From a virus (lineage: Duplodnaviria > Caudoviricetes), in the IMG/VR virus record IMGVR_UViG_3300025715_000017, positions 1 through 64,000 of that record: a DNA stretch of 64,000 nucleotides; one strand, 5' to 3'. Both the position numbers and the translations under genes were made by a program. The first letter of the stretch is position 1, and each line of letters begins with the position of its first letter. This document shows positions 4,298 through 50,694 of this stretch, piece after piece. The notes beneath the pieces are model-generated. The model saw only the letters and a list, made by a program, of their open reading frames with translations. It was not told the origin of the DNA and made no database searches.

Positions 4298-4885
4298 ATG
4301 GGATTAACCTCAAGTGGTACAGTAACTGGCCTTTCACGAATCTATGTAGATTCGCGCGCTGGTGGCGCAAATGCTGACGGTTCCGCAGATAAGCCTTTCG
4401 ATACTTTCGCGGAAGCTTTGGCAATTGTGCCCGATGTCTCTGATGAGGCATCTTTTAGTGCCATGCTATTGCGTATGCGTACAATTGTAATAGCTGGCAA
4501 TGTTGGAGACATTGAAGTTGATGTTCCGGTGATGATCGACAATACGTCTGGTATTATTGGCACCTTGACCTGCACTGCTCCGGTATTGCTTGTCGATGGT
4601 GGGTATATTACCACTTTGGGTGCGACAGATGCAGAACATTTGCGTGTCCAGAATGCCGAGATCACTACGGTAACACTGGAAGATTGTGCCGCAGCGTTTA
4701 TTGGTTGTAGCATCACCACGCTTACGCCTTCTGGTGCGGGTGAGTTGCAGCTTATTAATTCAGTGGTTATAGGTGAGATCACTATACCAGCGGAATACAC
4801 GGCCACGGCGATGAGTTCGGTGTTACTTGGTGGCGTTGATGGAAGTATTACGGATTACAACAGTGGAGTACACATGGGCACATGA
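4298..4885 (+). CDS. Putative head-associated protein (DUF1565-like motif plus short beta-helix-like region)
   Basis: IYVDSRAGGANADGSADKPFDTFAEAL matches the YVD..G.D...GS...PF.TI..AL motif. The rest is rich in I/T/L beta-strand repeats, and the gene sits in the head cluster. Confidence 0.5.
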   Translation: MGLTSSGTVTGLSRIYVDSRAGGANADGSADKPFDTFAEALAIVPDVSDEASFSAMLLRMRTIVIAGNVGDIEVDVPVMIDNTSGIIGTLTCTAPVLLVDGGYITTLGATDAEHLRVQNAEITTVTLEDCAAAFIGCSITTLTPSGAGELQLINSVVIGEITIPAEYTATAMSSVLLGGVDGSITDYNSGVHMGT

Positions 4886-5268
4886 TGATAGAAATGGAAG
4901 AATATGTGGCTTGGCATCTTAAAAAGCGTGTGTGGGATCGCTGCACCGATCAAGAAGTATGCCTAGCCACAGCCCAACGTGTATTGAACAGATTACCATT
5001 GAAAGCAGAATTACCTGATCCTTTAACACAAGATTTCAAAGAAGCAATATTCGAGATGGCATTAGCATTTGCAGATGGTGTAGATACTGATAAAGAGTAT
5101 AGATTATTGTCACGAACAACTCAGGGGTATGGCCCACTGAGGCAACAAAAAAACACTGCTATGGTTGAAGAATATCTGGCTTTGGGTATCCCGTGTTATG
5201 AAGCATGGCGTATCCTTTCACCTTATATGCAGACCCATAGGCAAGTGGACTTGGAGAGAGTATCATGA
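4882..5268 (+). CDS. Putative head-tail connector/adaptor
   Basis: 128-aa helical protein with the 'W...D...L.TA...L.RL...K.A..E.ALA' pattern of phage connectors. ATGA overlaps on both sides. Confidence 0.5.
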   Translation: MMIEMEEYVAWHLKKRVWDRCTDQEVCLATAQRVLNRLPLKAELPDPLTQDFKEAIFEMALAFADGVDTDKEYRLLSRTTQGYGPLRQQKNTAMVEEYLALGIPCYEAWRILSPYMQTHRQVDLERVS

Positions 5269-6104
5269 AATTAGGCCGGAAAATGTACAAGATGTACAAG
5301 ATGTATCCTATCATTGGGGATAAGAACAATGAGTCAGCGAGTGAGAAAAAAGAAGTTACCACATCCGTGGCCATTAAAAAAGATGAAAAAACCGGACACA
5401 CTTATTATGAGCTTGATGGTGGTGTTCGCTTATTCACGCAAGAACATTTGAATAAGGAAATCGGGCAAGCTCGTGTGAAAGCGTCCGAGGCTAATAAGAC
5501 TCTGATCCAGCAGTTGGAAGAGTTGCAGCAGAAAGCTACAACTACCGAAGCGGTGAAAGAGGAATTGGAACAGCAAATTCAGTCTCTGAAAAGTAAAACC
5601 ATGACTCAAGAAGAGCAAATGGCACAGAAAATCAAGGATCTTGAAAACAATCTGAAGATGACGCAAGAGAATTTAACGAAAGAACGGGATATTGCCCAAT
5701 CGCGGTGGCAAGAAGAGCGTATTACTAATGCGCTTCAGCTTGCTGCATTGGATCATCCTGTATTTTCTTTCGAGCAAATTTTCAGCATCATCCGCCCCAA
5801 AACTCGGCTGAAAGAGGTTGTTGATGAAGACGGTAAACCTACTGGAGAGCATGAGGTTATGGTAACCTTGGACGTACCTGACGACAAGGGTGTTGTTACT
5901 GTCAAAGAATTAGCCCCTACACAGGCTTTGGAAACTATGAAAGGTATGAAGAATAGATATGCAAACCTTTTCATTAACCAAGAAGTACCTGGTGTTGGTG
6001 GGACTAATAATCCTCGCAAACAAGGTGCATCTGACGTCCCTGGTCCAGAAGATCTGGTGTCTCAAGAGGCGTATAATGCATGGAAAAAACGACAAGGAAA
6101 GTAA
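5265..6104 (+). CDS. Capsid scaffolding protein
   Basis: Long E/Q/K coiled coil immediately upstream of the MCP, ending in the typical scaffold tail (..SQEAYNAWKKRQGK). Confidence 0.7.
   Translation: MKLGRKMYKMYKMYPIIGDKNNESASEKKEVTTSVAIKKDEKTGHTYYELDGGVRLFTQEHLNKEIGQARVKASEANKTLIQQLEELQQKATTTEAVKEELEQQIQSLKSKTMTQEEQMAQKIKDLENNLKMTQENLTKERDIAQSRWQEERITNALQLAALDHPVFSFEQIFSIIRPKTRLKEVVDEDGKPTGEHEVMVTLDVPDDKGVVTVKELAPTQALETMKGMKNRYANLFINQEVPGVGGTNNPRKQGASDVPGPEDLVSQEAYNAWKKRQGK
5283..5306 (+). repeat. ATGTACAAG tandem repeat (MYK-MYK-MY) in the scaffold leader
   Basis: ATGTACAAG ATGTACAAG ATGTAT, read directly. It creates three extra in-frame ATGs. Confidence 0.9.
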
Positions 6105-6107
6105 TTT

Positions 6108-7481
6108 ATGAAAGTATATCCTTTGATTGGAGACATTGACGCGCTTGTACCGGAATGGTGGGCACGTGAAGCTCTTGCGTACATGGAAGCAAAAAAGGTT
6201 CTGCTTGGCCGAGTTAATCGCGATTATGACAAGTATTTTGCAGTCGCGGGTGAAACGGTGAATGTACATCATGAGCTTGGTTTTACGGCGAAACGTAAAT
6301 TTCAGGGCCAGTCTGTTGTGAAGCAGCAGCCCCAAGCAACTGGCGACACTGTTGTGCTGAATCAGCACTTGCATGTTACCATTGAGATTGATGATCGCGA
6401 TCAGCAACGGGCGCAGCAAGACCTTATTGCCAAGTATGCGCCGCGTGGTGCGGAAGCGATGGTTAGTGCAATGGAGCAGGTCATTACTGGTGAAGTTTAC
6501 AATTTCGTGGCGCAGTCTGCTGGTGCTGTTGGTATTACGGCAGCGAATGTTGATGCTGGTGTCATGAATCTTCGTGAATTTTTTCAGCGTGAAAATACCG
6601 GTTCTTCGCGGTTGATCTCAGTTGGCGCGGCCACTGACAAATTGCTGCAGAACGTGGATCGGTATATTTCTGCATCGGAAATTCAGGATTCCATAGCTCA
6701 AGGCTCTATTCGTAATGGCCTTTTGGGGCGCCTGCGTGGCTTCGATGTGTACGAAAGTTCCTTCACACCGGAAATCCCCGCAACACAAACGACTGTTGAT
6801 GGTGCTGTGAATAATGGCGCAGGGTACATTGCTGGACAGACGACGTTGACGGTGGATGGTTTTGCTGGCGCATTGACCAACGGCTCTTGGTGTCTTATTG
6901 AGGGCGAAATGCTACCTCACAGGATCAGCACTGCAACTGGTACGCCTTGTACGCAAATTGTCATTACTCCGGCGCTACGTGCTCCCGTTGCTGATGACGC
7001 AGTTATCACGGTCATGGAAGCTGGTACGGTGGATCATCCTGATGGTGTTGGCGAATCGTATGCTGCACAGTATGGCGATGTCATTCAGGTTACTGGTTTC
7101 ACGGATATGCCTATTAGTGGCCAGGGTATCACGTTTGGTAATTCCAATACGGGATACATGGTTACGGATGTCGATGAGGGTGATAGCACAATCCTGTTGA
7201 ACCGCCCGTTGGATGAAGCCGTGGCTCATGGCGCAACTATTGCATTGATGCCTTATGGTAACTACAATTTGGCAATAGTCCCCGAAGCTATTACGTTTGT
7301 AAACCGTCCTATGGCAACCCCGCAGTTTAGTGTTCGTTCAGGTTTCGCAGCTGCTGATGGCTTGTCACTGCGTGTGACCTTTGCGTATGACGCAAATTAC
7401 ATGGTGACCACGGTGACGTTTGATACGTTGTGTGCGGTGAAGACTCTTGACACTCGCTATGGTGGTGTGTTTGTATCATAA
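6108..7481 (+). CDS. Major capsid protein, P22 coat-like HK97 fold, with an internal tandem beta-domain insertion
   Basis: 'VPEWWAREAL..M...VL...VNRDY....AGETVNV', 'IRNGLLGRLRGFDVYES' and C-terminal 'LAI.PEAITFVNRPM...FDTLCAVKTL'. Follows the scaffold gene. Confidence 0.85.
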   Translation: MKVYPLIGDIDALVPEWWAREALAYMEAKKVLLGRVNRDYDKYFAVAGETVNVHHELGFTAKRKFQGQSVVKQQPQATGDTVVLNQHLHVTIEIDDRDQQRAQQDLIAKYAPRGAEAMVSAMEQVITGEVYNFVAQSAGAVGITAANVDAGVMNLREFFQRENTGSSRLISVGAATDKLLQNVDRYISASEIQDSIAQGSIRNGLLGRLRGFDVYESSFTPEIPATQTTVDGAVNNGAGYIAGQTTLTVDGFAGALTNGSWCLIEGEMLPHRISTATGTPCTQIVITPALRAPVADDAVITVMEAGTVDHPDGVGESYAAQYGDVIQVTGFTDMPISGQGITFGNSNTGYMVTDVDEGDSTILLNRPLDEAVAHGATIALMPYGNYNLAIVPEAITFVNRPMATPQFSVRSGFAAADGLSLRVTFAYDANYMVTTVTFDTLCAVKTLDTRYGGVFVS

Positions 7482-7493
7482 GGAAACAAGTGT

Positions 7494-7859
7494 ATGATTA
7501 CAATGAATGCAAAAACTGGCGTCCCTCTTGCGCCGTTAGACTGGACTCCGCTTAATATTGCGGAGGGTCTGACGATCATAAACGAGGGTGCTAGTGTGCG
7601 CACTGCGGGGAAAGTCGCAGTGATCTTTGCCAATACCGATGACTATGGTGGCATAGATCTCACGATTACCGTGGCAGTGACTGCACAGCTTTCGGAAAGC
7701 GGTGAATCTCTTGACGCTATTCCTGTAACGGCTACTGTGGCGCCTGAAGAAATGGTGATTTTAGGCCCATTTGGCCGTGAACATGAAGGCTCCGAGAACA
7801 TACTAACTTTCACTTTTACCGGAGAGGAGGGCAGTTACTATGCGTTCTATACCCGTTAA
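7494..7859 (+). CDS. Putative capsid decoration protein, paralog 1
   Basis: 121-aa beta-rich protein after the MCP. Shares GK..V.F.NTD...DL..T..VTA...GPF...E...F.FTG with the next gene. Confidence 0.5.
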   Translation: MITMNAKTGVPLAPLDWTPLNIAEGLTIINEGASVRTAGKVAVIFANTDDYGGIDLTITVAVTAQLSESGESLDAIPVTATVAPEEMVILGPFGREHEGSENILTFTFTGEEGSYYAFYTR

Positions 7860-8220
7860 AAAGTACCCAGTTATTGGTGATCGAACGGAAATACCACAGC
7901 CAGATGCAATTAGCCCCTTGGAAGGGTTAAATGTCAATATGGAGACTGATGTTGATCTCGTGAATGGCATGACTATGACCAATTCGCGCGGTAAACAGAT
8001 TGTGCTATTCCAGAATACTGACGAATCTGTCGATTTGGTGGTGACACCTAATGTTACTGCCACAGTTTATACTTATGCTGTTGAAAGTGTGCCTATCACA
8101 ATCGGCCCCGGTAAAGTTTGGGCAATTGGGCCATTTTCTGCGAATTTCGAGGAAAGTGGTGAAGTTACTTTTGACTTCACTGGAGTATCAGGAATATGCC
8201 AAGCGATACGATTACCCTAA
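7840..8220 (+). CDS. Putative capsid decoration protein, paralog 2
   Basis: GGAGG ribosome-binding site at 7826-7830, 9 nt before the ATG. Paralogous to 7494-7859. Confidence 0.5.
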   Translation: MRSIPVKKYPVIGDRTEIPQPDAISPLEGLNVNMETDVDLVNGMTMTNSRGKQIVLFQNTDESVDLVVTPNVTATVYTYAVESVPITIGPGKVWAIGPFSANFEESGEVTFDFTGVSGICQAIRLP

Positions 8221-8429
8221 TTAGTATCATCCAGGACTATGGCCCTGCTATTGCTGCAATTGCATTCTTTTTATGGCGGGACTGGCGACGTGAAGAACGA
8301 ACAAGTATTCAGAACGATAGTTTGAACATTTTCATCCGTGAGCGCCTTACGGAAACGCTGGAAGAGAATACCCGTGTAATTACGGAAATGATTAATAATT
8401 GCAGAAAAAAAGGGAATAAGGATGAGTGA
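8196..8429 (+). CDS. Small single-pass membrane protein, holin-like (BhlA/UviB type)
   Basis: N-terminal hydrophobic helix (YGPAIAAIAFFLW) followed by a coiled coil ending 'ENTRVITEM'. Confidence 0.45.
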   Translation: MPSDTITLISIIQDYGPAIAAIAFFLWRDWRREERTSIQNDSLNIFIRERLTETLEENTRVITEMINNCRKKGNKDE

Positions 8430-8778
8430 TTTTATTTACTGGCTATTACGTGAGTATGGTGCATACGGGACAATAACCCATATAAATTCGACAACGCTTG
8501 ATCTTGAAACTGGCATGGAAACGCTGGATCAAGAAGAGCATGAAGAAAAGATGGCTCTATTGCCTGTATCCTTTATTTCAACGTATAGCAAGCAAGTAAG
8601 ATCCAGTGCTGATTATGGTAATCTGTATGCGCAAGGCAACAGCATAGTAGTTTTGCAGACGCCTAGTTTTGAGATACATGTAGATGATGTGGTGACTGTC
8701 GGTACATTGACTTTCAAAGTCAAGGAGTTGACACCTTACCCATTAGAAGATGCTTATGAATTGGTGGTACGGGCATGA
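8422..8778 (+). CDS. Putative head-closure protein
   Basis: 118 aa in the neck position, with the beta-barrel-like pattern 'DDVVTVG..TFKVKELTPY....YELVVR'. Confidence 0.5.
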   Translation: MSDFIYWLLREYGAYGTITHINSTTLDLETGMETLDQEEHEEKMALLPVSFISTYSKQVRSSADYGNLYAQGNSIVVLQTPSFEIHVDDVVTVGTLTFKVKELTPYPLEDAYELVVRA

Positions 8779-9164
8779 AAGATTTATTACAAGCGGTTTA
8801 TAATCACTATACGTTGGATGGCATGCAGACTTATTATGAAGGTCAAGCGAAACCAACTGATGTGACGACTCATCGCTGCGAAATTCATCTATTCGGCCCG
8901 TTCACCAATTACATAGGCCGCTCAGGCTATATGACTTGGAAGGTGTATTTGTACTTGACTTTGAAACTTGGATCAGGGGTGTATAACTGGTCTGACATTG
9001 TTGATAGGTACATTGCACAAGCACACAAGACTCTTGTATTTCGAGATGATGATGGCAACCCCGTTGATTGTTCCGCACTCGATAGGATCAAAGTCGTATA
9101 TCATGGTGCTACCGAGTTTTTAGAGTATTGTCAAATTGCAATTGAGTATCAAAAGGAGATTTAA
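8775..9164 (+). CDS. Putative tail terminator/completion protein
   Basis: 129 aa directly before the tail tube gene; ATGA overlap with the upstream gene. Confidence 0.45.
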   Translation: MKDLLQAVYNHYTLDGMQTYYEGQAKPTDVTTHRCEIHLFGPFTNYIGRSGYMTWKVYLYLTLKLGSGVYNWSDIVDRYIAQAHKTLVFRDDDGNPVDCSALDRIKVVYHGATEFLEYCQIAIEYQKEI

Positions 9165-9166
9165 GT

Positions 9167-9850
9167 ATGAAAAGATATCCTTTGATCGGTGCTAGCGGTT
9201 TGCAAGTCGGTAAATCTGTCGATCTTGCAAATGTCGCGCTATTTCTGATGACCAAAGCAACAGAAGTAGCCACTGAATATGATTGGGTATTGATGAAGTT
9301 TGGTGAAGGCAATCTGACGTGGACGCTTTCACAAGAACCCGTGTATGAGTTGAACCGTAAAGAATTGGATGACGTGTCGAAGGGTAATGCCAGTCCTTTG
9401 GAAGTTACGTTTGAAGGTAAGGCTACTTTCGTGGCTTCTAGTGGGACGGAACCACATACGGTTCATGAAATTCTTACAGGTTACAATTTCGCGACGGGTG
9501 CAAAGCAGTTTTACGGCACGTCCGAAACGTGGTTATCTGAATATGGTTGTCCCCCTTATTGCTGTCAGCTGGAATTTCATAGCATCCCGCAGTTGGAGTG
9601 CCCTCTTAGCTCAGCATTGGGTGAAGCAACGTTGTTCAGGTATTTCCGTGCAAGTAGCATTGGCTGGGACACCTCATCCAAGCGCGTGAGTGTACGTGGC
9701 ATGTCGCATGTGAAAATCCCGTTTGTACAACGCTTCGATTTTGCAGCGGCTTATGCCGCTGAACTTGGAGATGAAGTACTTACAGAAGGTGAACTTGTAC
9801 CTTTGGAAGATCTTGGTGGTACTTGGCCGGATGATCCAAGAGCTAGCTAA
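9167..9850 (+). CDS. Major tail (tube) protein
   Basis: Precedes the chaperone and tape measure genes. Contains 'GEGNLTWT...E..YELNR..LD.V..G...PLEVTFEG'. Confidence 0.65.
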   Translation: MKRYPLIGASGLQVGKSVDLANVALFLMTKATEVATEYDWVLMKFGEGNLTWTLSQEPVYELNRKELDDVSKGNASPLEVTFEGKATFVASSGTEPHTVHEILTGYNFATGAKQFYGTSETWLSEYGCPPYCCQLEFHSIPQLECPLSSALGEATLFRYFRASSIGWDTSSKRVSVRGMSHVKIPFVQRFDFAAAYAAELGDEVLTEGELVPLEDLGGTWPDDPRAS

Positions 9851-10369: not shown

Positions 10370-10536
10370 TCCCCGATGGTCGGACTTTCCTTTATGCTGT
10401 TTGGAAGGCTTGCCTACGCTGTGGGATCAAACCCCCCGGAGTAGGCAATACATGGGATGAATGTAGCCCAGTAGTACAGGCTCAGATGATAGCCTTTTCG
10501 GAGATTGCAGACTATGAAACACAGCGGCTCTTTTGA
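10333..10536 (+). other. Programmed -1 frameshift site (T TTT TTA, 10333-10339) and gpT-like extension
   Basis: GAT TTT TTA gives an X XXY YYZ heptamer. The -1 frame is open for 65 codons (SYSQKGGDVVIPDGRTFLYAVWKACLRCGIKPPGVGNTWDECSPVVQAQMIAFSEIADYETQRLF*) and has no upstream start of its own near the site. Confidence 0.8.
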
Positions 10537-11164
10537 AATTCCTGGCCTTGGTGTCGGGATCGAAGGGGCCGCTGTCCTTATTTCTAACAGATTAAATTAT
10601 GCATATTTGCGAGCATTACAAGATTATATGACTGATGTTGCGAAGCGAATACCGGTGTTGACAGGTGCAACACGGACGGCAGCTTTGCAAGTGTTAGATG
10701 ACATTGAAGATAAGCTGCAAGAGAGTGGCTTACCTTTTGAGCCTTCCGATGTGGATCTAGAACCGACTACAAGACAAGTTCCTGGATCACCATCATATCC
10801 TGCCACACCTGATACAACACCACCTTATAGGGGGAAATTTTCCCCTCAGCATTATTTTGATTTAGAATCGCGTCAAGAGTGGCGATATGAAGCAGAGACG
10901 TACACGGATGCAAGAAGCATAAGATCATTTTCTATGGCCTCTGCACATAATGGTCAGATGAATTTCGATTTCGTTATTATAACAGAAGATCAAGGTTTCA
11001 ATTATTGGGCTGATGGTGAACCCGCGAAATATAAACCTGAAGATGCTGCTGTTTATGAATATGAAAATAAGATTGGTGGGTATATACAACAGTATGTAAC
11101 CCCCACTTTGAATATATTTATGCCCAAAGCAGGGCAAAGTACTTTTGATTTTGGAGATGCATAA
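10514..11164 (+). CDS. Putative tail completion protein (HK97 gp10-like motif)
   Basis: 'RIPVLTGATRTA' resembles the PVDTG.LR.S motif. ATG 10514 is preferred. Confidence 0.4.
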   Translation: MKHSGSFEIPGLGVGIEGAAVLISNRLNYAYLRALQDYMTDVAKRIPVLTGATRTAALQVLDDIEDKLQESGLPFEPSDVDLEPTTRQVPGSPSYPATPDTTPPYRGKFSPQHYFDLESRQEWRYEAETYTDARSIRSFSMASAHNGQMNFDFVIITEDQGFNYWADGEPAKYKPEDAAVYEYENKIGGYIQQYVTPTLNIFMPKAGQSTFDFGDA

Positions 11165-35429: not shown

Positions 35430-35702
35430 ATGAATTGGATTGAAACTTTCGTAAGCACATTTACAGACGCAGAACGCCTCGAAGATCTCACTGAAATCAG
35501 TGATCTTCTACGTGCCTTGCGTAGACAGGTGGTTAAAGACACGAATACTATGAAAAGGGTTAATGCTAGTACCATTACTGATATTGCTGATAGCGCTTCA
35601 GCATTGCGTACTAGCATGAATGAAGGTACTTCAGGGCAGACAGATGCAATAAGAACACTTGCAACTGCGTTGTATGAGCACTTCGTACCTTCAGGAGCAT
35701 AA
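35430..35702 (+). CDS. Hypothetical helical protein (90 aa)
   Basis: AGGAG RBS, tight packing with neighbours and an amphipathic helical sequence. Confidence 0.6.
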   Translation: MNWIETFVSTFTDAERLEDLTEISDLLRALRRQVVKDTNTMKRVNASTITDIADSASALRTSMNEGTSGQTDAIRTLATALYEHFVPSGA

Positions 35703-47355: not shown

Positions 47356-48930
47356 ATGGATAGAATGATTGTTATAGCAGCAACTGATGAAGTTAAGGAG
47401 ATTCTTGATCTTACTTTACCAAAAATTCAGGCGTTTGCGGATAATTGTGGTGCTTATTTGAAAATGCTTACAGGTTTACCTGCTAAGTATCAACATGGCA
47501 AGTATCGCATATTTGAAGTCGGAGAATTAGAAGCCAAACGTATACTTATCATGGATCTAGATCTGCTGCCAAGAGACGGTGCGCCAAATATCTTCGAGGT
47601 ATACCCTACTGGTAATTGGATGTTCAATGAAGGACGTTATCGTGGGCATGGTTTTGTGAGCCACCGTAAAGAGATGGACAAGTATGTGCGAACTGCTGGT
47701 TTACCACAATGTGTCTGGCCTTCGCGGGATTGGTGGAACCCTGGAATCTCATTATTAGATCGAGAAGCAGCAAAAGCAATTTTTCAAATGCCACCTTGGG
47801 ATGTCACAACTAAATTACATAATGTATCTAATGGCATGGCAGTTAAGAACATGCCTTGGGTAAATTATCGCATAGCTCTTACAGGAACAAAAATCAATAG
47901 CATAGATGCACGCTGGAATACTTTCCCTTCCATGCCTTTAGATGCTCAAAAGAAAGCATATATTTGGCATTGCTTTTGCAATGAAATTCAAGTAGACAGA
48001 ACAAAAAGTAAAATTAGAGTTATCAAGCAGATGTGCAAGCGACATGGAGAATCTTTAATCCCTAAACCCAAAGTGAATATAAGCACAAGAAAATATAAAT
48101 ACCGTTTACACTGCGTTAGTGGCAAGCAAACAAGGAAATGGATACTTGGGCGTATGCAAGATGAGATCATTAAATATGCCCCAAGTGATGTTGAAGTTAC
48201 TCAAAGTGGCAACCCTGTTGATGAACCAAGAACAATAAACTGGTACAACCCTTATCGTATTTATGGAAGCAAGAGTCAATACGCTTTGGATGTGGTTTTT
48301 TGCACACATCCCGAAGTATTACCAACTTGGAATAAAGCAATTGCAGAAGCAGATCACATCATTTGCATGTGCAAACAATATACACCCGATAAATCAAATG
48401 TCTCTTTAATTTACCCAGGAATAGATCCAGAGTATTATAATACGAAATTACGTATTTTCAACCCGGTTATGATGAGCCATTCACGAAAAGGCTTAGCTGA
48501 CTGGCAACTTCTTAGCAAATTAGACTGGTTGGATTGTCATTGTAGTAATGGACAATTAACCAAAGAACAATTGCTTGCTTATTATCTTGCAGCAGATGTA
48601 GTATTATCAACTGCCACAATGGAAGGTGGGCCAATGTTAATACTTGAAGCGGCGGCTCTTGGCAAATTATGCTATGCAAGAAAGGGAGTAGGCTTTGTTG
48701 ATGATTTCGTATTTCCTAATCTTCATACTTATTCAAATGTCATTGATCTCATAAACATTTTGCAACAGATATACTATAATAAAGAAAAAGTTGGAAATTG
48801 GGAATACACATGGAAGCAATGGGCAGAAAAACATTGGCAAATTTTCAATAATCTTGAAAAACAAATGAAGGACTTTCCGAATTTTAAAGAGAAAACCCGG
48901 ATCATTCCGGTGAAAAGAAGGAAACGATGA
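47356..48930 (+). CDS. Bifunctional glycosyltransferase: GT8-like N-domain fused to GT-B (GT4-like) C-domain
   Basis: N-half has 'ILIMDLDLL', 'WNPGISLL' and 'IDARWN..IWHC'. C-half has 'LIYPGID', 'RKG' and 'YLAADVVLSTATMEGGPMLILEAAALG'. Confidence 0.75.
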   Translation: MDRMIVIAATDEVKEILDLTLPKIQAFADNCGAYLKMLTGLPAKYQHGKYRIFEVGELEAKRILIMDLDLLPRDGAPNIFEVYPTGNWMFNEGRYRGHGFVSHRKEMDKYVRTAGLPQCVWPSRDWWNPGISLLDREAAKAIFQMPPWDVTTKLHNVSNGMAVKNMPWVNYRIALTGTKINSIDARWNTFPSMPLDAQKKAYIWHCFCNEIQVDRTKSKIRVIKQMCKRHGESLIPKPKVNISTRKYKYRLHCVSGKQTRKWILGRMQDEIIKYAPSDVEVTQSGNPVDEPRTINWYNPYRIYGSKSQYALDVVFCTHPEVLPTWNKAIAEADHIICMCKQYTPDKSNVSLIYPGIDPEYYNTKLRIFNPVMMSHSRKGLADWQLLSKLDWLDCHCSNGQLTKEQLLAYYLAADVVLSTATMEGGPMLILEAAALGKLCYARKGVGFVDDFVFPNLHTYSNVIDLINILQQIYYNKEKVGNWEYTWKQWAEKHWQIFNNLEKQMKDFPNFKEKTRIIPVKRRKR

Positions 48931-49800: not shown

Positions 49801-50050
49801 TTGCTTCCAACCAGTCAATAATTATTTGGCCGTGGCAAGGCCGTGGAGCGCAAAAACATCCCAATGTCTTACCACGCAGCTTCAAAACTTCTTCACGAAA
49901 AAGGGGATCAATTTTCACACGCATCAAAAAATACTTTTCATATCGTGCTATAAGATCGGTTCGTTTTCCTTTAGTGAAAGGATTACCGAATATACTAGGG
50001 CGACCAATATAAACATCATATATTTCTTTCCTGCAATCCACGATTTTCAT
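49778..50050 (-). CDS. DUF4326-family protein
   Basis: 'VYIGRPSIFGNPF' and 'LRGKTLGCFCAPRPCHGQII'. ATG 50050 overlaps the amidase stop. Confidence 0.8.
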   Translation of the reverse strand: MKIVDCRKEIYDVYIGRPSIFGNPFTKGKRTDLIARYEKYFLMRVKIDPLFREEVLKLRGKTLGCFCAPRPCHGQIIIDWLEANETFQSS

Positions 50051-50694
50051 ATTCTCGGATCTCCTTTCAAGTAATAGCCACAAAGATCATAAAATGCTCT
50101 GCTTGTTTCCATACCTGCCCACCCATCAATCTTACCCTCATAGTAACCCAAATCTTTTAAAAGTTTCTGTACTTTGGTTGCTAGGATAACTTCTTCAGTA
50201 GTTGGACGTGTATCCTTGAAACGCAAAATAGTAGTTATGCCTAAATATGATCTAATGTTAGACATATTTACGAATACACCAGGGCAGGATTTATTAACTG
50301 GAGATACCTCTGTCAACTTATCTCGGAGAATGATATCATTTACCTCGTTATGTCCAATTACATTCTCTGGTGGTATGTTATATTTTGACATGTCGTCTTG
50401 TGTGAGGCGTAAACCGGAATCTAGTTGACGTGGCGTGAGTGGCATGAAATCACCATGTCCTGAAAAACAATAGCCAATAGCCCTACTATTTAACCCTTGA
50501 ACATGGGCACCCGCTTCATCATATGATCTTCCATTCTCAATGGTGCCATCGAAACGGATGACACGTTGATACCCTATACCTTTCCACCCTCTTGCTTTAT
50601 GCCACTGATCTATCTCAGCAGCGCTAGTGTCAAGAGCAACACCTTCTTTTGTTGCGTGTGCAGCAGTATGCCACACAATGTACTGGAATTTCAT
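50047..50694 (-). CDS. Endolysin: N-acetylmuramoyl-L-alanine amidase (Amidase_2) with a C-terminal peptidoglycan-binding domain
   Basis: Zn ligand motifs 'IVWHTAA', 'GWKGIGY', 'GAHVQGLN', 'VIGHNEV' and 'KSCPG'. C-terminal 'VQKLLKDLGYYEGKIDGWAGMET'. Confidence 0.9.
   Translation of the reverse strand: MKFQYIVWHTAAHATKEGVALDTSAAEIDQWHKARGWKGIGYQRVIRFDGTIENGRSYDEAGAHVQGLNSRAIGYCFSGHGDFMPLTPRQLDSGLRLTQDDMSKYNIPPENVIGHNEVNDIILRDKLTEVSPVNKSCPGVFVNMSNIRSYLGITTILRFKDTRPTTEEVILATKVQKLLKDLGYYEGKIDGWAGMETSRAFYDLCGYYLKGDPRI

What the first reader, a model, noticed from the sequence alone, without database searches (positions are those of the whole stretch)
5265..9193. Four unrelated virion-assembly proteins share an N-terminal YP[LIV]IG[DA] motif: candidate common processing or sorting leader
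Scaffold (MKLGRKMYKMYKM-YPIIGD, 5304-5321), major capsid (MKV-YPLIGD, 6117-6134), decoration paralog 2 (MRSIPVKK-YPVIGD, 7864-7881) and tail tube (MKR-YPLIGA, 9176-9193) all carry the motif after a short basic leader. Codons differ synonymously (TAT/TAC, CCT/CCA, GGG/GGA/GGT), so conservation is at protein level. Leader length varies from 3 to 13 aa and has expanded by tandem repeat in the scaffold. Decoration paralog 1 lacks the motif, and no prohead protease gene lies in the head cluster. Established precedent: Staphylococcus phage 80alpha scaffold and capsid share an N-terminal motif cut by the host L27-processing protease Prp. This motif is not the Prp LQFF/A sequence and extends to a tail protein, suggesting an undescribed host- or phage-protease-dependent maturation signal, or a shared docking strand.
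Basis: partly seen in the sequence, partly recalled or inferred. Interest (0 to 1): 0.85.

Follow-up and report, generated by a model that had tools for sequence, protein, structure and literature searches.

The report
Shared N-terminal tag on phage virion proteins
An uncultured 90-kb tailed phage puts the same short N-terminal peptide (basic leader plus Tyr-Pro-x-Ile-Gly) on its scaffold, capsid, decoration-like and tail-tube proteins, and related phages carry their own versions of the tag, so one unidentified factor probably recognises, and perhaps cuts, all of them.

Summary
YP[LIVM]IG[DA] occurs four times in the six frames of the whole 89.7-kb contig (0.01 expected), each time 3-13 residues after a start codon with a Shine-Dalgarno site.

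The carriers are the scaffold, a P22-like capsid protein, a small beta-sandwich protein and a protein with a tail-tube fold. Synonymous codons differ, so selection acts on the peptide.

The tag is conserved in homologues: 12 of 12 capsid proteins at 54-89% identity and 10 of 10 full-length tube proteins at 53% identity or more.

It is portable. It is gained or lost on the tube, on decoration paralogues and on a small tail protein, and untagged homologues start where the tag ends.

It co-varies. More distant lineages carry different tags (YxRILD, RYF, RIxVF, LFVPAF, NLSYKLMWIG and others) that scaffold and capsid share within each phage. The true pairing is the best of 5040 permutations.

About 89% of 169 capsid representatives have such an extension, ending in F, Y or G before a conserved [AD]-N-[DST] box.

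No protease is recognisable in the contig. The tag matches neither the Prp/L27 motif nor the L27 leaders of the only candidate host order.

My best reading is a removable or recognition leader that works like the 80alpha Prp leader, with an unknown enzyme. Cleavage is unproven. This scan has noted similar shared leaders in other phages.

The parts
5265..6104 (+). Scaffolding protein gene (279 aa). Basic leader at 5265-5303 (MKLGRKMYKMYKM, with a 9-base tandem repeat); tag YPIIGD at 5304-5321, followed by an acidic low-complexity linker.
   Evidence: phrog_206 head scaffolding protein E 6e-10; weak PF06810; sequence. Tag Tyr14 is invariant in 7 scaffold homologues.
6108..7481 (+). Major capsid protein gene (457 aa, P22-coat-like HK97 fold). 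Leader MKV at 6108-6116; tag YPLIGD at 6117-6134; the N-arm (ALVPEWWA) follows directly.
   Evidence: phrog_283 E 3e-32, PF11651. Y4, P5, I7 and G8 are invariant in 12 homologues at 54-89% identity.
7494..7859 (+). Untagged paralogue of the small beta-sandwich (decoration-like) protein (121 aa). It starts MITMNA where the tagged paralogue has leader plus tag.
   Evidence: Alignment A9, 32% identity to 7840-8220; sequence.
7840..8220 (+). Tagged small beta-sandwich (decoration-like) protein (126 aa). Leader MRSIPVKK at 7840-7863; tag YPVIGD at 7864-7881.
   Evidence: Sequence. AlphaFold model: pLDDT under 50 for residues 1-9, beta-sandwich core, no clear PDB match. Tagged homologues in L005, L002, L028, L030, L043.
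9167..9850 (+). Tail tube protein gene (227 aa). Leader MKR at 9167-9175; tag YPLIGA at 9176-9193.
   Evidence: AlphaFold model pTM 0.77, residues 1-14 pLDDT under 50. Foldseek PDB matches are tail tubes of P74-26, lambda, T5, Sf11 and monocin. 10 of 10 full-length homologues at 53% identity or more keep [KR]YPxIG; two at 41-44% start where the tag ends.
35430..35702 (+). Small helical protein after the giant fibre gene (90 aa), untagged here (starts MNWIETF). Its homologue in the L002/G001 phage starts MKTYPQIGSAKTDWVEAII, which shows that the tag is portable.

Best explanation
K-x-YPxIG is a modular N-terminal leader. It consists of Met, 2-12 mostly basic residues, and a short hydrophobic recognition core. 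It sits in front of the normal N-terminus of several highly expressed virion proteins: scaffold, capsid, decoration-like protein, tube, and in one relative a small tail protein. One trans-acting factor reads it in any protein context. I think the most likely step is endoproteolytic removal at or next to the junction between tag and body (after Ile-Gly here; after Phe or Tyr in most relatives), before or during assembly. This would work like the Prp-processed leaders of staphylococcal phage 80alpha, but with a different and unidentified protease. Shown: the tag is non-random, selected at the peptide level, conserved, portable, predicted disordered, and co-varies between proteins of the same phage. 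Inferred: that a single factor recognises it. Not shown: cleavage, and the identity of the factor.
For: - Four matches against 0.01 expected, all at gene starts.
- Synonymous variation within the tag.
- Tag invariant in capsid homologues and in 10 of 10 tube homologues at 53% identity or more.
- The tag is present or absent on homologous proteins. Tagged: L005 scaffold, capsid, both decoration paralogues and tube. L002: tube untagged, a small tail protein tagged.
- Untagged homologues of capsid, tube and the small tail protein begin within 0-3 residues of the tag's end.
- Lineage-specific tags are shared within a phage. L028/L043: YxRIL[DA] on scaffold, capsid and decoration protein. L032: [LI]F[IV]PAF on scaffold, capsid and tube. 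L029: R[LI]xVF (tube VPVF). L045: NLSYKLMWIG. L031, L046, L004 and L035 have further versions.
- The true scaffold-capsid pairing scores best of 5040 permutations.
- Across 169 capsid representatives, 150 carry an extension whose last residue is F (24%), Y (21%) or G (11%), just before a conserved [AD]-N-[DST] box. 19 leaderless ones start M-A-N-D. This F|A-type junction resembles the Prp site (PMC5744158, PMC9405229).
- AlphaFold gives pLDDT under 50 for the tag on the tube and the decoration-like protein.
- In scaffolds the tag is followed by an acidic, Gly-rich linker.
- Precedent: Prp leaders occur on 80alpha capsid and scaffold and on the phi13 major tail protein.
Against: - No cleavage data exist, and all tagged relatives are uncultured. 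The cultured relatives checked (phiCP39-O, Dinoroseobacter phage R5C) are leaderless.
- No protease family was found in the contig by Pfam or PHROGs; ORFs under about 90 aa and the 4620-aa tail protein were not scanned.
- The proteins in the usual protease position have no conserved Ser, His or Cys.
- The tag resembles neither the Prp consensus nor the L27 leaders (..NIL[EK]CM|ASKKG) of the one candidate host order.
- No other ORF of that MAG starts with the tag.
- Tags change fast between related phages. That fits a phage-encoded or intrinsic partner better than a conserved host enzyme.
- An uncleaved add-on tag would equally sit just before the ancestral start, so the junction argument does not separate the two models.
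- In 80alpha itself, cleavage is dispensable while the scaffold leader is essential.
Confidence: 0.45

Rival explanations
1. The tag is not cut. It is a docking or chaperone tag: a short hydrophobic strand on a flexible tether. It binds one common partner, such as a phage assembly factor, a host chaperone like DnaK (basic flank plus hydrophobic core), or a pocket on the capsid protein that the scaffold's tag mimics (as encapsulin cargo peptides do). This would coordinate folding, solubility or co-assembly of the abundant self-polymerising proteins.
For: - Co-variation within phages and rapid change between them suggests a co-evolving phage partner, or a need for the tags to be the same.
- The scaffold tag is followed by a long acidic, Gly-rich tether.
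- The tag is predicted disordered when the protein is modelled alone.
- No protease was found.
- In 80alpha the scaffold leader is needed for assembly but its cleavage is not, and the authors proposed a common chaperone (PMC5744158).
Against: - The tagged proteins end up in different places (capsid interior, capsid exterior, tail), so one structural docking site is unlikely.
- No candidate receptor stands out. The only gene loosely linked to tagged lineages is a 72-104-aa membrane protein, and it is missing in L004, L035, L031 and L032.
- Tag invariance (Y, P, I, G) is tighter than a generic chaperone motif needs.
Confidence: 0.3
2. The tag is the recognition sequence for a post-translational modification of virion proteins, for example by the glycosyltransferase-like genes at the end of the structural operon.
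For: Capsid and tail tube are the glycosylated proteins in some mycobacteriophages (my own knowledge, not checked here). A GT1-like domain lies at 47356-48930 (E 2e-5, below Pfam's cut-off). The invariant Tyr could be an acceptor.
Against: - The scaffold, which leaves the particle, always carries the tag.
- Only one weak glycosyltransferase match was found.
- Other lineages have tags without Tyr (R[LI]xVF).
- Linkage to glycosyltransferase genes in relatives was not tested.
Confidence: 0.05
3. The conserved codons act in translation, either as an mRNA element near the start site or as a nascent-peptide effect, and were copied between genes to raise expression of abundant proteins.
For: - All carriers are high-copy proteins.
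- In L045 the scaffold and capsid gene starts share 33 of 33 identical bases in the tag codons, downstream of similar ribosome-binding sites. This shows that start regions are copied between genes.
- In the tube mRNA the UAUCCUUU of the tag can pair with the Shine-Dalgarno region.
Against: - Synonymous sites vary while the residues stay fixed.
- The distance from the start codon varies from 3 to 15 codons.
- Upstream regions are not conserved.
- Folding energies of the four start regions are ordinary, with z-scores from -0.7 to +0.8.
- Other lineages use unrelated codons.
Confidence: 0.05
4. The tag is a classical Prp substrate leader that mimics the host's long L27.
For: Same logic and the same set of carriers (capsid, scaffold, major tail protein) as in staphylococcal phages. 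Many relatives end the tag in F or Y followed by A. The one host lead is a Bacilli-class MAG whose order has long L27.
Against: YPxIG does not fit MLxx(D/N)LQ(F/L)F|A(S/H)KK. It also does not fit the ..NIL[EK]CM|ASKKG leaders of that order. PF04327 (Prp) was not found in that MAG, which is incomplete. The binning of the phage contig may be wrong.
Confidence: 0.08

Closest known systems
Prp-processed N-terminal leaders of Staphylococcus phage 80alpha capsid and scaffold proteins (and the phi13 major tail protein), which mimic ribosomal protein L27
   Same: A short N-terminal leader is shared by otherwise unrelated capsid, scaffold and tail-tube proteins in a phage with no prohead protease gene. 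The leader sits in front of the functional N-terminus. Many relatives have an aromatic residue followed by Ala or Asp at the junction.
   Different: The sequence is unrelated to the LQFF|A motif. The tag differs sharply between related phage lineages and co-varies within each phage. It is also found on decoration-like and small tail proteins. There is no matching host L27 leader in the only candidate host order. Cleavage and the enzyme are unknown.
Phage T4 capsid-targeting sequence on internal proteins, removed by the prohead protease gp21
   Same: A roughly 10-residue portable N-terminal tag on unrelated proteins (my own knowledge; also cited in earlier notes of this scan).
   Different: No prohead protease gene. 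The carriers are the main structural proteins, including a tail tube, not packaged cargo. There is no consistent L/I-x-Glu ending.
Encapsulin cargo-loading peptides
   Same: A short hydrophobic peptide on a flexible linker that could bind an HK97-fold shell protein (my own knowledge). The scaffold's tag plus acidic linker has this layout.
   Different: The tag is N-terminal, is also present on the shell protein itself and on tail proteins, and no binding has been shown.

Membership tests
Prp/L27-type phage leader | The same N-terminal leader on capsid and scaffold (and sometimes the major tail protein) of one phage | tested here: met
   precedent in PMC5744158.
Prp/L27-type phage leader | [quoted passage not shown] | tested here: not met
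   The tag is K-x-Y-P-x-I-G-[DEAG]. Motif taken from PMC9405229.
Prp/L27-type phage leader | Host has Prp and a long L27 whose leader resembles the phage leader | tested here: inconclusive
   Host unknown. The related phage L002 is binned in an Izemoplasmatales MAG. That MAG gave no Prp or L27 hit and is incomplete. In 7 of 10 L27 loci fetched from that order (12 sampled genomes plus G001), a regex for the mature start [HS]KK[GA].G[SN] found an upstream leader; five read ..NIL[EK]CM|ASKKG and two are variants (MVCT|, ELC|). None resembles YPQIG.
Prp/L27-type phage leader | Leader removed in mature virions | not testable with these tools
   No cultured tagged phage and no proteomic data.
T4-type capsid-targeting sequence | Phage-encoded prohead protease, and a tag ending in its cut site | tested here: not met
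   No protease family in the Pfam or PHROGs scans of the contig. The residue after Gly varies (D, E, A, G, S, V, N, T).
P22-like HK97-fold major capsid protein (6108-7481) | Profile match to coat-protein families | tested here: met
   phrog_283 E 3e-32; PF11651 E 9e-7, above its cut-off.
Siphophage tail tube protein (9167-9850) | Tail-tube fold and gene position before the chaperone and tape-measure genes | tested here: met
   Foldseek matches are almost all tail-tube or tube-like proteins, E 7e-4 to 3e-2, TM 0.3-0.5. The tape measure (PF10145) lies downstream. The match is weak but consistent.
Capsid decoration protein (7494-8220) | Structural similarity to a known decoration protein | tested here: inconclusive
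   Beta-sandwich model with no PDB match at E 0.001 or better. Only the gene position supports the name.

The most novel reading that the evidence does not exclude
The tag is an assembly address code that evolves quickly and is not a protease site. A so far unrecognised phage-encoded receptor, or a pocket on the capsid protein itself, would read the same lineage-specific peptide on scaffold, capsid, decoration and tail proteins. This would coordinate their folding or co-assembly across a capsid family of at least 946 sequence clusters. Tags would spread between genes by short-patch gene conversion.
Probability: 0.25. Interest if true: 0.85.

Novelty: new variant of a known kind. Interest (0 to 1): 0.62.

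Why it matters
Why capsid, scaffold and tail proteins of some phages share an N-terminal leader is still unresolved, even for the one studied case, 80alpha. There the leader is essential but its cleavage is not.

This family offers many natural variants of such a leader. The variants co-vary within each phage, and the capsid family is very large and uncultured. That makes the question testable in three ways:
- tag swaps between lineages;
- pull-downs with tag peptides;
- N-terminal proteomics.

If a new protease or receptor is behind it, this would be a widespread and undescribed step of virion assembly. It would also give a ready-made portable peptide tag system.

Tried and rejected
- **Chance:** rejected. 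Four matches against 0.01 expected.
- **DNA or RNA element:** upstream regions are not conserved and the start-region folds are ordinary.
- **Phage protease:** none found in the ORFs scanned: most ORFs of about 90 aa or more except the 4620-aa tail protein. Pfam on the head and tail-tube ORFs (except 10505-11164, which had PHROGs only), the replication and lysis genes, 33 small ORFs and the large tail proteins. PHROGs gave nothing either.
  - An HExxH scan found one motif, in a helical ParB-like 333-aa protein that does not look like a protease.
  - The 195-aa beta-helix-like protein and the DnaT_2-like protein, which sit where a protease usually does, have no conserved catalytic residues. The beta-helix-like protein has no PDB sequence match.
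- **Host mimicry:** in the Izemoplasmatales MAG that holds a related phage, the only other tagged ORFs lie on the phage contig. Among 300 further sampled genomes of that class, MKxYPxIG gave only 4 hits, in line with the ~7 expected by chance; the 3 inspected were not at real gene starts.
- **IMG/VR pattern scan:** it returned only this phage's lineage plus 3 internal chance matches.
- **Literature:** searches for YPLIG, YPIIG, YPVIG and YPxIG found nothing relevant.
- **Host type:** L27, archaeal S28e and McrA searches in the MAG were all negative and therefore uninformative.
- **Search limits:** a genome-contig search with the wide capsid alignment failed for lack of a conserved stretch. The narrower alignment found only the MAG contig.


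Full report
**1. Observation**

The window is the first 64 kb of an 89,717-base virus contig with 41% G+C.
- The pattern YP[LIVM]IG[DA] occurs exactly four times in the six frames of the whole contig. The positions are 5304-5321, 6117-6134, 7864-7881 and 9176-9193.
- 300 shuffles of the contig give a mean of 0.01 matches.
- Each copy follows Lys-x and lies 13, 3, 8 and 3 residues after an ATG that has a GGAG-type ribosome-binding site upstream.
- The codons differ at synonymous positions (TAT/TAC, CCT/CCA, ATT/ATC, GGG/GGA/GGT), and the upstream DNA is not conserved. So the conserved object is a peptide.
- RNA folding of the four start regions is unremarkable, with z-scores from -0.7 to +0.8.
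- The scaffold leader contains the 9-base tandem repeat ATGTACAAG. An 86%-identical relative lacks it (L030).

**2. The carriers**

- 5265-6104 matches head scaffolding protein phrog_206 (E 6e-10).
- 6108-7481 matches major head protein phrog_283 (E 3e-32) and the P22 coat family PF11651.
- 9167-9850 has no family match. An AlphaFold model built on 17 homologues has pTM 0.77, and its PDB matches are nearly all tail-tube proteins (P74-26, lambda, T5, Sf11, monocin). They are weak (E 7e-4 to 3e-2) but consistent. The gene lies before a chaperone-like gene and the tape measure (PF10145).
- 7840-8220 and its untagged paralogue 7494-7859 fold as a small beta-sandwich with no clear structural match. 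'Decoration' rests on gene position only.
- In both models the leader and tag are predicted disordered, with pLDDT under 50.

**3. Conservation in relatives**

Capsid homologues from metagenomes at 54-89% identity all keep [KR]-x-YPxIG after leaders of 3-13 residues. Y4, P5, I7 and G8 are invariant, against a mean column identity of 72%. All 10 full-length tube homologues at 53% identity or more keep the tag. The two at 41-44% begin (MPNGLQKG.., MANSQQKG..) where the tag ends.

Neighbouring genes were read in fetched contigs:
- L030 carries the tag on scaffold, capsid, one of two decoration paralogues and the tube.
- L005 carries it on scaffold, capsid, both paralogues and the tube.
- L002, a 72.7-kb contig binned in an Izemoplasmatales MAG, has YILIGE on the scaffold and YPQIG on capsid and decoration protein. 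Its tube is untagged. It also has MKTYPQIGS on a 98-aa helical protein after the giant fibre gene. The window homologue of that protein (35430-35702) starts MNWIETF without a tag.

The tag is therefore a portable module that is added to or lost from different late proteins.

**4. Co-variation**

More distant lineages (32-45% capsid identity) have different N-terminal motifs, and the motif is shared within each phage:

| Lineage | Tag | Proteins that carry it |
|---|---|---|
| L028, L043 | Y-x-R-[IV]-[LM]-[DA] | scaffold, capsid, decoration protein |
| L004, L035 | [RQH]-R-Y-[FLM] | scaffold, capsid |
| L029 | R-[LI]-x-V-F (tube VPVF) | scaffold, capsid, tube |
| L032, L034 | [LI]-F-[IV]-P-A-F | scaffold, capsid, tube |
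| L031 | DP....LNV[HY]E | scaffold, capsid |
| L046 | TF..AY | scaffold, capsid |
| L045 | NLSYKLMWIG | scaffold, capsid |

I scored the best ungapped 6-residue match between scaffold and capsid N-termini in seven lineages. The true pairing has mean score 22, against 13.1 for cross-phage pairs. It is the single best of all 5040 permutations.

In L045 the two gene starts share 33 of 33 identical bases in the tag codons, downstream of similar ribosome-binding sites. This shows that tags can be copied between genes by recombination. Elsewhere synonymous differences show long-term selection on the peptide.

**5. Family scale**

A profile search finds 946 capsid cluster representatives at E 1e-30 or better. 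Of 169 representatives examined:
- 150 carry an N-terminal extension, mostly 9-20 residues long.
- The last residue of the extension is F (24%), Y (21%) or G (11%), and it sits directly before a conserved [AD]-N-[DST] box.
- 19 start M-A-N-D without any extension.

YPxIG is thus one variant (the Gly class) of a family-wide feature. The cultured relatives that I checked, Clostridium phage phiCP39-O and Dinoroseobacter phage R5C, are leaderless. No experimental data bear on the tag.

**6. What reads the tag?**

No protease family appears in Pfam or PHROGs scans of most ORFs of about 90 aa or more; smaller ORFs and the 4620-aa tail protein were not scanned. Two proteins occupy the usual protease position. 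One is a 195-aa beta-helix-like protein, the other a DnaT_2-like protein that is probably an adaptor. Neither has a conserved Ser, His or Cys.

The endolysin is an Amidase_2 with a peptidoglycan-binding domain, so the host is a walled bacterium. Strong Shine-Dalgarno sites argue against Bacteroidota (inference).

The only host lead is the Izemoplasmatales MAG.
- It has no other ORF starting with the tag.
- It gave no Prp or L27 hit, but it is incomplete.
- Ten of the 12 other genomes sampled from its order have L27. A leader was read upstream in seven; five read ..NIL[EK]CM|ASKKG and two are variants. All are unlike YPQIG.
- 300 further genomes of its class gave only 4 MKxYPxIG matches, as many as chance predicts; the three inspected are not at real gene starts.

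The Prp consensus MLxx(D/N)LQ(F/L)F|A(S/H)KK (PMC9405229) is not met.

**7. Interpretation**

The closest known system is the Prp-processed leader of 80alpha capsid and scaffold. The same motif is also reported on the major tail protein of phi13. In 80alpha the scaffold leader is essential for assembly while cleavage itself is dispensable, and the authors suggested a common chaperone or a regulatory role (PMC5744158).

The present case shares the logic and the set of carriers. It differs in sequence, in its sharp lineage-specific co-variation, and in having no matching host leader.

| Reading | Confidence |
|---|---|
| Removable leader cut at the tag/body junction by an unidentified enzyme | about 0.45 |
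| Uncleaved docking or chaperone tag, including mimicry of the capsid tag by the scaffold | about 0.3 |
| Classical Prp substrate | about 0.08 |
| Modification sequon | about 0.05 |
| Translation-level effect | about 0.05 |

The fast divergence of tags between related phages argues for a phage-encoded or intrinsic partner rather than a conserved host enzyme. This is the main weakness of the host-protease version.

**8. Verdict**

Earlier notes of this scan describe comparable shared leaders on capsid, scaffold and tube proteins in other phages, so the phenomenon recurs. Here it is a new variant of a known kind, in a large uncultured family, with testable natural variation.

Noticed in passing
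window 8196-8429: A 77-aa single-pass membrane protein is encoded inside the head module, between the decoration-like genes and the neck genes. It is conserved in L030, L005, L002, L028 and L043, and lies before the scaffold gene in L029. It is absent from L004, L035, L031 and L032. Its function is unknown. It is only loosely linked to the tagged lineages.
   Followed up: partly
window 4298-4885: A 195-aa protein with the look of a small right-handed beta-helix (..YVDS..ADGS..PF.T..EAL) sits where prohead proteases usually lie. It is duplicated in L005. It has no conserved catalytic residues and no Pfam, PHROGs or PDB sequence match.
   Followed up: partly
window 5283-5303: A 9-base tandem repeat, ATGTACAAG (2.6 copies), lengthens the scaffold leader (MYKMYKMY) and creates three extra in-frame ATGs. 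An 86%-identical relative (L030) lacks it.
   Followed up: partly
L045:1591-1632 and L045:2395-2436: In a distant relative the scaffold and capsid genes share 33 of 33 identical bases in the tag codons (KNLSYKLMWIG), downstream of similar ribosome-binding sites. This points to recent gene conversion between the two gene starts.
   Followed up: yes
G000 contig 70127-70714 (L006:6127-6714), outside the window: The phage encodes its own sigma-70-family factor (regions 2 and 4). The late structural operon may therefore have phage-specific promoters.
   Followed up: no
L050-L056 (L27 genes of genomes in the order of the Izemoplasmatales MAG): L27 in this order has an N-terminal leader that mostly reads ..NIL[EK]CM|ASKKG instead of the canonical ..LQFF|ASKK Prp motif. 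This is a divergent putative Prp site.
   Followed up: partly
P0190 (5871-aa protein from the representative library): A giant protein matches the capsid profile in 18 separate stretches, all over profile positions 237-318. This is the capsid insertion domain, so the small insert domain is reused as a repeat in very large proteins.
   Followed up: no
G000 contig 89658-89717, outside the window: The last 60 bases of the contig contain the 24-base unit TATGCAGGTATGCCGGCCGGTAGT twice, 36 bases apart. The contig may end inside a repeat array, and no terminal overlap with the contig start was found.
   Followed up: no
window 50047-50694 (- strand): The endolysin is an Amidase_2 with a peptidoglycan-binding domain. 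This implies a walled bacterial host and fits poorly with a wall-less Izemoplasmatales host for this clade.
   Followed up: partly
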